From Escherichia coli (GTDB lineage: Bacteria > Pseudomonadota > Gammaproteobacteria > Enterobacterales > Enterobacteriaceae): 64,000 nucleotides of DNA. The notes below the pieces were generated by a model. The model searched no databases. It had not been told where the DNA came from and saw nothing but the letters and a program-made list of their open reading frames with translations. Made by a program: the position numbers and the translations under genes. The DNA lies in NCBI RefSeq assembly GCF_022846255.1, contig NZ_AP025682.1; one strand, 5' to 3'. Position 1 is the first letter of the stretch; the number at the start of each line of letters is the position of its first letter. Below are positions 2,839 to 3,866 of the stretch, one piece after another.

Positions 2839-3129
2839 TACCGTTGTCTCTCGTCCAGGTTTACTCCTGATAGAAAGTCATCGGCACTTGACGGTAATTA
2901 CTTATGACCAAAAACCTCTTTGCGTCACATTTTTACAACAATTATGGCAGAGAAGAATAATGCCATTGGAATGAAGAGAGTAACGAATGATTAAACTGGC
3001 AAACCCGAATGACGAAAAATTCTGGAAAACAGCACGCAATTTCGTCAGGTGATTATTTTCGTCCCTAAGGAAACCACATAGGATGCTCACGGGTGCCTGA
3101 GACTTTCTGTTTTCAGGCTAACCGGGAAT

Positions 3130-3200
3130 CAGAAAGACGAAGGCCCCGACCGATATTTCTATCAACCGAGGCCAACGAATGAACACAGCAATTCAGATCT
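3130..3200 (-). ncRNA. sokB: Putative Sok-type antisense RNA of the hokB locus (coordinates approximate)
   Basis: By analogy with hok/sok loci an antisense RNA is expected just upstream of hokB on the opposite strand; the minus strand here can form a stem (cgguugaua/uaucggucg with G-U pairs). Not verified by alignment. Confidence 0.25.
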
Positions 3201-3236
3201 TAGCCTCTTACCCGCCATCCGGCAAGGAGAAAGGCT

Positions 3237-3386
3237 ATGAAGCGCAACCCTCTGGTGGTGTGTCTGCTCATTATCTGCATTACGATTCTGACATTCACAC
3301 TCCTGACCCGACAATCGCTCTACGAACTGCGGTTCCGGGACGGTGATAAGGAGGTTGCTGCGCTCATGGCCTGCACGTCCAGGTAA
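3237..3386 (+). CDS. hokB: Hok-family type I toxin, 49 aa
   Basis: Hand translation MKRNPLVVCLLIICITILTFTLLTRQSLYELRFRDGDKEVAALMACTSR is a typical Hok sequence; preceded by aaggagaaagg RBS; below the 60 aa cutoff of the ORF track. Confidence 0.85.
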   Translation: MKRNPLVVCLLIICITILTFTLLTRQSLYELRFRDGDKEVAALMACTSR

Positions 3387-3457
3387 GGGCAAGCGCGGGG
3401 ATTTTCCCCGCGCATCTGACTAGCAGATTCATTTTCTCATGGCACCCCTTTTACACT

Positions 3458-3631
3458 TCAGTTAGTGCATGTTTTTTTCGATGCACTAATAGAACCATCA
3501 TTACAGACAAATTTGCCGCCTGCCGTACAGTGTGAGATCCCCCCTTTCGAACCAGAACAGGGTTTGCGCCCGGCATCGGCATAAAAGGAAACAAGCGTTC
3601 CCATAACCAGGATAAGCGCCAGTTTTTTCAT
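3458..3631 (-). CDS. ydcA: Small secreted/lipoprotein-like protein, 57 aa
   Basis: Hand translation MKKLALILVMGTLVSFYADAGRKPCSGSKGGISHCTAGGKFVCNDGSISASKKTCTN with signal peptide; GGAGG RBS; position between hokB and cybB as in K-12. Confidence 0.75.
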   Translation of the reverse strand: MKKLALILVMGTLVSFYADAGRKPCSGSKGGISHCTAGGKFVCNDGSISASKKTCTN

Positions 3632-3801
3632 ATAACCTCCATGATTTATCGAATCTTATGTTCGATTTGAACGTTATACGCTGGTTTATTTTGATACCGT
3701 TGATGAGATCAAAGATCGGGTGAATTGATTAAAGATAAGCCAGATGGACGTATAGACAAGGATTATGGTTTTATTTGTCATACAAATAAATATAATAGGC
3801 G

Positions 3802-3866
3802 CTTCCGATGTAGGCCCGTATTCTTCGCCTGTACCACGGGTCGGTTTTAGTACAGGCGTTTTCTTT
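3802..3866 (+). ncRNA. rydC: RydC small regulatory RNA
   Basis: cttccgatgtaggcccgtattcttcgcctgtaccacgggtcggttttagtacaggcgttttcttt matches the RydC sequence as recalled (one possible substitution); TATAAT -10 at 3791..3796; ends in hairpin plus U-run; lies between ydcA and cybB. Confidence 0.7.

What the first reader, a model, noticed from the sequence alone, without database searches (positions are those of the whole stretch)
3100..3866. Dense small-gene/sRNA cluster upstream of trg: hokB toxin with expected antisense RNA, ydcA and RydC
Within ~770 bp there is a Hok-family toxin gene, a presumed Sok-type antisense RNA and overlapping mok frame that I could not place precisely, the 57 aa ydcA and the RydC sRNA with its own -10 box. 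This is a known arrangement but invisible to a 60 aa ORF cutoff.
Basis: partly seen in the sequence, partly recalled or inferred. Interest (0 to 1): 0.2.

Follow-up and report, generated by a model that had tools for sequence, protein, structure and literature searches.

The report
Known E. coli hokB–ydcA–rydC small-gene cluster
This stretch is the well-annotated Escherichia coli locus that holds the HokB toxin with its SokB antisense RNA, the small proteins MokB, YncP and YdcA, and the regulatory RNA RydC; it is intact here and ordinary.

Summary
Window 2839-3875 aligns without gaps to E. coli K-12 (97.2% identity, 29 substitutions), which carries curated annotations for every element.

Transferred coordinates:
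- sokB 3189->3133 (-)
- mokB 3179-3346 (+)
- hokB 3237-3386 (+)
- ydcA 3631->3458 (-)
- rydC 3802-3866 (+)

Independent tests agree:
- Pfam HOK_GEF matches HokB at 5e-24.
- NCBIfam's YdcA model scores 146 bits.
- Rfam RydC scores 90.5 bits.
- Rfam "sok" scores 105.8 bits, but on the sense strand, so it models the hokB leader rather than the antisense RNA.

Folding reproduces the plasmid R1 hok switch:
- In the full-length mRNA, tac pairs with fbi and ucb hides the mok ribosome-binding site.
- In the 3'-truncated mRNA, tac pairs with ucb and the mok site pairs with dcb.

The TadA editing site (Tyr29, TACG) is present. RydC keeps its seed, both pseudoknot helices and the TATAAT box.

Among 5426 complete E. 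coli genomes the hokB leader is contiguous in 4511, split or partial in 585 and absent in 330. The one split genome I examined carries IS150 inside sokB; the one genome I examined that lacks the leader has a trg-hokB deletion.

Nothing here is new, and interest is low.

The parts
3079..3084 (+). Candidate hokB/mokB promoter -10 box (TAGGAT), 6 nt upstream of the inferred mRNA 5' end. No convincing -35.
   Evidence: Read from the sequence. It aligns with TAGAAT at the same position upstream of K-12 hokA. It falls below the scan tool's threshold. Inferred, not shown.
3091..3102 (+). tac (translational activator element), at the 5' end of the hokB mRNA
   Evidence: The Rfam sok-model match starts at 3091. 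It pairs with 3435-3447 in the full-length fold and with 3141-3147 in the truncated fold. In the nascent 50-nt fold it pairs with 3111-3123.
3141..3147 (+). ucb / anti-Shine-Dalgarno box
   Evidence: It pairs with the mokB SD (3168-3173) in the full-length fold and with tac in the truncated fold. The tac/ucb stem is part of the Rfam consensus structure.
3133..3189 (-). sokB antisense RNA (57 nt). Its 5' tail (3189->3178) covers the mokB start codon. Terminator stem at 3173->3142, followed by UUCGUCUUU.
   Evidence: Transfer of the K-12 annotation. Terminator-like site. Fold energy -22.2 kcal/mol, z = -4.0, 0 of 200 shuffles as stable.
3197..3225 (-). Candidate sokB promoter: -35 TTGCCG (3225->3220), 17-nt spacer, -10 TAAGAT (3202->3197), 7 nt before the annotated SokB 5' end
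   Evidence: Read from the sequence; coordinates. It matches 8 of 12 consensus positions, below the scan tool's cut-off of 9. Inferred.
3179..3346 (+). mokB, a 55-aa leader frame overlapping hokB in another frame, with SD GAGG at 3168-3171
   Evidence: ORF list; K-12 transfer. The exact protein is in public databases, named 'regulatory peptide'. No Pfam or NCBIfam family matches.
3203..3207 (+). dcb (downstream complementary box)
   Evidence: It pairs with the mokB SD (3168-3172) in the truncated-mRNA fold and in the Rfam consensus structure.
3237..3386 (+). hokB, a 49-aa Hok/Gef membrane toxin (His3Arg and Thr27Ser relative to K-12), with SD at 3226-3233
   Evidence: Pfam PF01848 5.2e-24. NCBIfam NF007279 101.7 bits. 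The exact protein occurs on 658 contigs and is named HokB.
3321..3324 (+). TadA A-to-I editing motif TACG. Tyr29 codon TAC, edited base A3322, recoding Tyr to Cys.
   Evidence: The motif is read from the sequence. Editing of hokB codon 29 is shown in PMC12214031, and the TACG rule is described in the 2026 preprint. In the RNAfold prediction, this allele has a 6-bp stem around the site versus 3 bp in K-12. Editing itself was not tested.
3393..3413 (+). G+C-rich hairpin just after the hokB stop codon; probably the 3' protective stem-loop of the processed mRNA
   Evidence: Folds. The role is inferred by analogy with the last stem-loop of truncated hok mRNA in PMC9841398.
3435..3447 (+). fbi (fold-back inhibitory element), complementary to tac
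   Evidence: In the whole-mRNA fold, 12 base pairs form with 3091-3102 for every 3' end tried, from 3450 to 3503. A separate duplex test of the first 22 nt (3091-3112) against the 3' UTR gave -25.6 kcal/mol versus -15.4 +/- 2.6 for shuffles, with 0 of 500 reaching it; that optimal duplex also includes a second short helix further upstream in the 3' UTR (from 3421).
3364..3432 (-). yncP, a 22-aa small protein gene, antisense to the last 23 nt of hokB and its 3' UTR
   Evidence: K-12 annotation b4774 transferred. The exact protein is named YncP. It is listed among experimentally verified novel sORFs in PMC8921622. yncP-hokB is listed as a convergent excludon in PMC12288877.
3458..3631 (-). ydcA, a 57-aa secreted (signal-peptide) protein with four cysteines and no known function
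   Evidence: NCBIfam NF007462 146.1 bits. Named 'periplasmic protein / YdcA family'. PMC11340327 states that it has a signal sequence. PMC7642389 reports control by YdcI and induction at acid pH.
3791..3796 (+). rydC sigma-70 -10 box TATAAT, with no obvious -35
   Evidence: The same description is given for eight enterobacterial species in PMC11340327.
3802..3866 (+). rydC, an Hfq-binding pseudoknot sRNA (one change from K-12, A13G)
   Evidence: Rfam RF00505 90.5 bits, full-length match to model positions 1-64. Helix 1 (12-18/35-41) and helix 2 (25-33/49-57) are all standard pairs; U23U24, U46U47 and the U tail are present. A13G turns an A-U pair into a G-U pair.

Best explanation
This is the chromosomal trg / sokB-mokB-hokB / yncP / ydcA / rydC / cybB neighbourhood of Escherichia coli, intact and orthologous to the annotated K-12 locus. 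It holds three independent units.

(1) A hok/sok-type type I toxin-antitoxin module.
- A weakly promoted, roughly 360-400-nt mRNA starts near 3091 and carries mokB and hokB.
- As made, its 5' end (tac) pairs with fbi in the 3' UTR, and ucb hides the mokB ribosome-binding site, so the mRNA is inert.
- Slow 3' trimming removes fbi. Then tac pairs with ucb, the mokB site moves to a weaker stem with dcb, and mokB translation can drive hokB translation.
- SokB RNA, made from the opposite strand, pairs across the mokB start and blocks this. By analogy with plasmid R1, it also triggers RNase III decay.
- TadA editing of codon 29 (Tyr to Cys) further raises HokB toxicity.

(2) ydcA and yncP are small protein genes on the opposite strand. 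YdcA is a secreted protein of unknown function.

(3) rydC is a YieP-repressed, Hfq-dependent pseudoknot sRNA whose 5' seed activates cfa mRNA.

Shown here: homology, synteny, intact reading frames, and the predicted alternative RNA pairings. Inferred from published work on K-12 and R1: expression, processing, toxicity, editing and regulation.
For: - Gap-free 97.2% alignment to K-12 with all six annotated features transferring.
- Family scores: Pfam and NCBIfam; Rfam sok 105.8 bits and RydC 90.5 bits.
- All four small proteins are found verbatim in public databases under these names.
- In the full-length fold, tac pairs with fbi and ucb pairs with the SD. In the truncated fold, tac pairs with ucb and the SD pairs with dcb. 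This matches the R1 model described in PMC9841398.
- The 5'-3' duplex is stronger than all 500 shuffles.
- SokB has a terminator-like stem-loop.
- The TACG editing motif is present at Tyr29 (PMC12214031).
- The RydC pseudoknot, seed, U pairs and TATAAT box are all present, in agreement with PMC4337610 and PMC11340327.
Against: - No expression data exist for this strain.
- The hokB and sokB promoters were read by eye and fall below the scan tool's threshold.
- The 3' end of the hokB mRNA cannot be fixed from sequence. The hairpin at 3461-3492 has no U tract after it.
- The K-12 hokB locus reportedly does not mediate post-segregational killing and is not activated by rifampicin (preprint 10.1101/2025.08.07.668861). 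So the R1-type mechanism may be only partly operative in the chromosome.
- The folds are thermodynamic predictions, and the same elements are identical in K-12, so they offer no covariation within hokB itself.
Confidence: 0.96

Rival explanations
1. The hokB/sokB module here is a decayed, non-functional relic. The reading frames and RNA elements would be conserved only because divergence is recent, and the locus would do nothing in the cell.
For: - The K-12 hokB locus did not mediate post-segregational killing and was not activated by rifampicin.
- About 17% of complete E. coli genomes have lost a contiguous leader, through an IS150 insertion and a deletion in the two cases examined. That shows the module is dispensable.
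Against: - The remaining 83% of genomes keep the unit contiguous.
- Every structural element (tac, fbi, ucb, SD, dcb) is intact and switches partners as in R1.
- HokB is toxic when expressed, is edited by TadA in several pathotypes, and is linked to persistence.
Confidence: 0.15
2. The Rfam 'sok' match marks the antitoxin RNA itself on the + strand at 3091-3242. On that reading the antisense RNA would be a 152-nt transcript co-directional with hokB.
For: The family RF01794 is named 'sok antitoxin', and the match is on the + strand at 105.8 bits.
Against: - The model's last positions align to the hokB Shine-Dalgarno sequence and AUG.
- Its consensus helices are the tac/ucb and mok-SD/dcb stems of the hok mRNA leader.
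- K-12 annotates SokB on the opposite strand.
- The only terminator-like stem-loop with a U tail is on the - strand.
Confidence: 0.02

Closest known systems
E. coli K-12 MG1655 locus at 1491442-1492175: rydC b4597, ydcA b1419, yncP b4774, hokB b4428, mokB b1420, sokB b4429
   Same: Same genes in the same order, orientation and spacing, with no indels over 1037 bp, and the same flanking genes trg and cybB. The tac, fbi, ucb, SD and dcb elements are identical.
   Different: There are 29 substitutions:
- HokB His3Arg and Thr27Ser
- MokB Leu3Thr, which also changes positions 4-5 of SokB
- YncP Lys6Arg
- YdcA Phe9Val
- RydC A13G
The neighbouring gapC is intact here but is a pseudogene in K-12.
hok/sok of plasmid R1 (type I toxin-antitoxin, post-segregational killing)
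   Same: - The toxin family is the same.
- There is an overlapping mok frame.
- The antisense RNA lies across the mok start.
- The tac/fbi closure and the ucb/dcb switch are present.
   Different: - This locus is chromosomal rather than plasmid-borne.
- HokB is 49 aa versus 52, and MokB is 55 aa versus 70.
- Position 29 is Tyr and needs TadA editing to become the Cys that is hard-coded in most Hok proteins.
- The K-12 orthologue does not give post-segregational killing.
E. coli K-12 hokA / mokA / sokA / ysaE locus
   Same: It is a paralogous module, with a small ORF (ysaE) antisense to the hok 3' end, just as yncP is to hokB. The leader and -10 box can be aligned.
   Different: - In K-12, hokA is disrupted by IS150 in the leader, whereas the window's hokB is intact.
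- YsaE and YncP show no protein similarity.
RydC of Salmonella and E. coli (Rfam RF00505)
   Same: Full-length match, with the seed, pseudoknot, conserved U pairs, TATAAT box and cybB neighbour all present.
   Different: Only A13G, a polymorphism also seen in strains CH4811 and GN04204.

Membership tests
[quoted passage not shown] | Hok/Gef-family toxin of about 50 aa | tested here: met
   Pfam PF01848 84 bits against a cut-off of 22; NCBIfam NF007279 101.7 bits against a cut-off of 73.
[quoted passage not shown] | A mok frame that starts upstream with its own SD and reads across the hok start | tested here: met
   ORF 3179-3346 overlaps the hokB start at 3237, and GAGG lies at 3168-3171. Translational coupling itself was not tested.
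[quoted passage not shown] | A cis-encoded antisense RNA across the mok translation initiation region, with its own promoter and terminator | tested here: met
   K-12 sokB transfers to 3189->3133. A terminator-like stem and U-rich tail are found. The promoter hexamers were read by eye. Transcription was not tested.
[quoted passage not shown] | Long-range tac/fbi pairing between the mRNA 5' end and the 3' UTR | tested here: met
   3091-3102 pairs with 3435-3447 in every full-length fold. In a separate duplex test of the first 22 nt against the 3' UTR, 0 of 500 shuffles reach the observed energy.
[quoted passage not shown] | Switch from ucb:mok-SD to tac:ucb plus mok-SD:dcb after 3' truncation | tested here: met
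   The predicted partners change exactly this way between the folds of 3091-3450 and 3091-3415. The Rfam covariance model with these stems scores 105.8 bits.
[quoted passage not shown] | Killing or growth arrest when the antisense RNA is lost | not testable with these tools
   The literature reports that the K-12 hokB locus lacks post-segregational killing, although HokB itself is toxic.
RydC sRNA (RF00505) | Covariance-model score above the gathering threshold over the full length | tested here: met
   90.5 bits against 48, model positions 1-64 of 64.
RydC sRNA (RF00505) | A pseudoknot of two helices with a free 5' seed | tested here: met
   Helix 1 has 7 standard pairs and helix 2 has 9. Nucleotides 1-10 are unpaired and, like the whole seed, identical to K-12.
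RydC sRNA (RF00505) | Hfq contact elements: U23U24, U46U47 and the 3' U tail | tested here: met
   All are present. They are defined in PMC4337610.
RydC sRNA (RF00505) | A perfect TATAAT -10 box without a -35, next to cybB | tested here: met
   TATAAT at 3791-3796; the cybB stop codon is at 3876. The description is in PMC11340327.
YdcA family (NCBIfam NF007462) | Equivalog model score above the cut-off | tested here: met
   146.1 bits against 118, covering 57 of 57 residues.
TadA mRNA editing substrate | A TACG motif at the Tyr codon, within a hairpin loop | tested here: met
   TACG at 3321-3324, in a predicted loop closed by a 6-bp stem.
TadA mRNA editing substrate | A-to-I conversion seen in RNA | not testable with these tools
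   This has been shown for K-12, several pathotypes and Shigella sonnei in PMC12214031, but not for this allele.

The most novel reading that the evidence does not exclude
The ydcA-yncP transcript on the minus strand could act as a second antisense regulator of hokB.

- Its yncP leader (3447->3433) is the exact complement of fbi, so it has nearly the same sequence as tac.
- It also covers the 3' protective hairpin of the hokB mRNA.
- Pairing there could displace tac, or recruit RNase III, and so either activate or destroy the hokB mRNA independently of SokB.
- This would link toxin control to the acid- and YdcI-regulated ydcA promoter.
- The same layout at hokA (ysaE) hints that this could be a general feature of chromosomal hok loci.
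Probability: 0.08. Interest if true: 0.4.

Novelty: already known. Interest (0 to 1): 0.08.

Why it matters
It matters little as a discovery, because every element is already annotated in K-12 and studied experimentally.

Its value is practical:
- It shows that a 60-aa ORF cut-off misses four real genes and two regulatory RNAs within 780 bp.
- It shows that the Rfam 'sok' match gives the sense-strand leader, not the antitoxin RNA.
- It shows that this strain carries an intact hokB/sokB module, whereas about one in six complete E. coli genomes has lost a contiguous leader.

Tried and rejected
- The consensus promoter scan found neither the hokB, sokB nor rydC promoter at its 9-of-12 threshold. 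The two + strand hits it gave (2932-2961 and 3288-3315) match no known start site, and their number equals the shuffle expectation (2 found versus 1.9 expected), so I ignored them.
- Plain RNAfold of RydC gave z = -1.05, because it cannot represent a pseudoknot. I checked the two helices by direct pair counting instead.
- I tested whether YsaE and YncP are related proteins. They show no similarity.
- I tested whether the IS150 in K-12 hokA and the IS150 in other strains' hokB reflect one event. The orientations are opposite and the flanks differ, so they were independent insertions.
- I considered a cross-species covariation test of tac/fbi with a genome-wide scan. I did not run it, because the locus identity was already settled and the hokB alleles fetched carry no changes in these elements.
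- The 62-aa ORF at 2902-3090 (-) is unannotated in every genome inspected. I treat it as spurious.

Full report
**Observation.** Reading 2400-4600 and listing all ORFs of at least 20 aa shows the following:
- a 546-aa chemoreceptor gene on the minus strand (1198-2838);
- a 49-aa ORF (3237-3386, +), overlapped by a 55-aa ORF in another frame (3179-3346, +);
- a 22-aa ORF (3432->3364, -);
- a 57-aa ORF (3631->3458, -);
- a cytochrome b561 gene (3876-4442, -).

Family searches identify these:
- The 49-aa ORF is a Hok/Gef toxin (Pfam 5.2e-24; NCBIfam Hok-family model 101.7 bits).
- The 57-aa ORF is YdcA (NCBIfam NF007462, 146.1 bits).
- The flanking genes are Trg-like and CybB-like.
- Rfam finds RydC at 3802-3865 (90.5 bits, E=5e-18) and the family called 'sok' at 3091-3242 (105.8 bits, E=1.7e-24).

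**Identity with the known locus.**
- The 1037-bp block between trg and cybB matches 5416 of 5426 complete E. coli genomes, with the best at 98.7% identity.
- The curated K-12 record annotates rydC, ydcA, yncP, hokB, mokB and sokB here.
- A global alignment of window 2839-3875 to the K-12 block is gap-free, with 29 substitutions (97.2%).
- The transferred coordinates are sokB 3189->3133, mokB 3179-3346, hokB 3237-3386, yncP 3432->3364, ydcA 3631->3458 and rydC 3802-3866.
- All four small proteins occur verbatim in public databases under these names.
- A 6.6-kb stretch of neighbouring housekeeping genes is at most 99.2% identical to any complete genome. The source is therefore an E. coli lineage that is not itself in the collection.

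**The hokB/sokB module.**
- The Rfam 'sok' hit lies on the same strand as hokB and ends at the hokB Shine-Dalgarno sequence and AUG. Its consensus helices are those of the hok mRNA leader. It therefore marks the sense leader, and its first base (3091) marks the probable mRNA 5' end.
- The real antisense RNA is on the minus strand. It is a 57-nt RNA with a 12-nt single-stranded 5' tail complementary to 3178-3189, which includes the mokB AUG. A 14-bp stem-loop (3173->3142) and UUCGUCUUU follow (z = -4.0).
- Upstream of it I read -35 TTGCCG, a 17-nt spacer and -10 TAAGAT (3225->3197). This is an inference, because the scan tool's threshold is not reached.
- The features that define hok mRNAs are set out in PMC9841398: tac/fbi closure, ucb sequestration of the mok SD, and a switch to tac/ucb plus SD/dcb after 3' trimming.
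- Folding reproduces all of them without constraints:
  - In 3091-3450, 3091-3102 pairs with 3435-3447, and 3142-3147 pairs with 3168-3173.
  - In 3091-3415, 3091-3098 pairs with 3141-3147, and 3168-3172 pairs with 3203-3207.
  - The first 50 nt alone form a local hairpin that involves tac.
- The tac/fbi pairing persists for every 3' end tried. A separate duplex test of the first 22 nt against the 3' UTR gave -25.6 kcal/mol, better than all 500 shuffles.
- A G+C-rich hairpin (3393-3413) sits where the protective 3' stem-loop of the processed mRNA is expected.

**RNA editing.**
- hokB is the model substrate for TadA A-to-I mRNA editing, which recodes Tyr29 to Cys and raises toxicity through a Cys29-Cys46 disulfide (PMC12214031; preprint).
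- The window keeps the TACG motif at 3321-3324.
- Its Thr27Ser substitution (T at 3315) lengthens the predicted stem around the site from 3 to 6 bp. Whether this changes editing is untested.

**yncP and ydcA.**
- It is listed among experimentally verified novel small ORFs (PMC8921622).
- The yncP-hokB pair is listed as a convergent excludon (PMC12288877).
- K-12 hokA has the same arrangement with ysaE.
- ydcA is reported to be under YdcI control and induced at acid pH. Its transcription was not affected by deleting yieP (PMC7642389).

**RydC.**
- The window copy differs from K-12 only by A13G, which changes an A-U pair in helix 1 to G-U. Two of the five other strains fetched carry the same base.
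- Both pseudoknot helices, the free 5' seed, U23U24, U46U47 and the U tail are present, as defined in PMC4337610.
- TATAAT lies at 3791-3796, with no obvious -35. This is exactly how the rydC promoter is described in PMC11340327, which also shows that YieP represses it.

- The 401-bp hokB/sokB unit is contiguous in 4502 of 5426 complete genomes.
- With the 146-nt leader as query, 4511 genomes are contiguous, 585 are split or partial, and 330 have no match.
- One split case carries a 1443-bp IS150 with a 3-bp target duplication at 3164-3166. The insertion lies inside the SokB stem-loop and cuts the promoter and tac away from mokB and hokB.
- One case without a leader match lacks window 1643-3281, from within trg to hokB codon 15.
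- A third class lacks 1643-2975 but keeps hokB.
- K-12 hokA carries IS150 at a nearby leader position in the opposite orientation.

**Verdict.** The observation and the interpretation are both correct. The region is a fully annotated, experimentally studied locus, and the copy in this window is intact and unremarkable. The most novel reading the evidence leaves open is that the ydcA-yncP transcript acts as a second antisense regulator of the hokB 3' end. That is speculative.

Noticed in passing
window 3364-3432 (-): yncP, a 22-aa annotated small protein gene antisense to the hokB 3' end, is missing from the finding. Its leader (3447->3433) is the complement of fbi, so it nearly repeats the tac sequence. 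K-12 hokA has an analogous antisense ORF, ysaE.
   Followed up: partly
window 3164-3166; locus L003 2558-4000: In the one split-leader genome examined, a 1443-bp IS150 sits inside sokB and the hokB leader, with target duplication AAC. In all, 585 of 5426 complete E. coli genomes have a split or partial leader. The IS150 next to K-12 hokA lies at a nearby leader position but in the opposite orientation.
   Followed up: partly
window 1643-3281 and 1643-2975; loci L004, L005: Two deletion classes share a left breakpoint inside trg. One also removes sokB, mokB and the first 15 hokB codons; 330 genomes lack the leader entirely. The other stops at 2975 and leaves hokB intact.
   Followed up: partly
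window 3091-3242 (+): Rfam RF01794, named 'sok antitoxin', matches the sense strand and models the hok mRNA leader down to the hok AUG. Its coordinates should not be taken as those of the antisense RNA.
   Followed up: yes
window 3315 and 3321-3324 (+): The HokB Thr27Ser allele lengthens the predicted stem that closes the TadA editing loop from 3 to 6 bp relative to K-12. None of the five strains fetched has this substitution, but the exact protein occurs on 658 public contigs.
   Followed up: partly
window 4595-5596 (+): gapC encodes an intact 333-aa glyceraldehyde-3-phosphate dehydrogenase here, whereas it is a pseudogene in K-12.
   Followed up: no
window 2878-2904 (-): A sigma-28-like promoter, TAAGTAAT-N11-GCCGATGA, lies upstream of trg, as expected for a flagellar class III chemoreceptor gene. 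It was read by eye against a consensus recalled from memory.
   Followed up: no
window 31342-31459 (-), 24263-24383 (-), 38326-38421 (+): Three further sRNA genes pass Rfam gathering scores: FnrS, MicC and McaS. FnrS represses yieP translation, and YieP represses rydC, so an indirect activator of rydC lies 28 kb away in the same window.
   Followed up: no
hit H173 (NZ_CP034389.1), matching window 3091-3236: 89 complete genomes carry a divergent hokB leader allele at 80-90% identity. The one listed is about 15 nt shorter.
   Followed up: no
window 3461-3492: A 10-bp perfect hairpin with a U-rich loop overlaps the ydcA stop codon and lies just past fbi. Neither strand has a U tract after it, so its role as a terminator for hokB or ydcA is unclear.
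   Followed up: no
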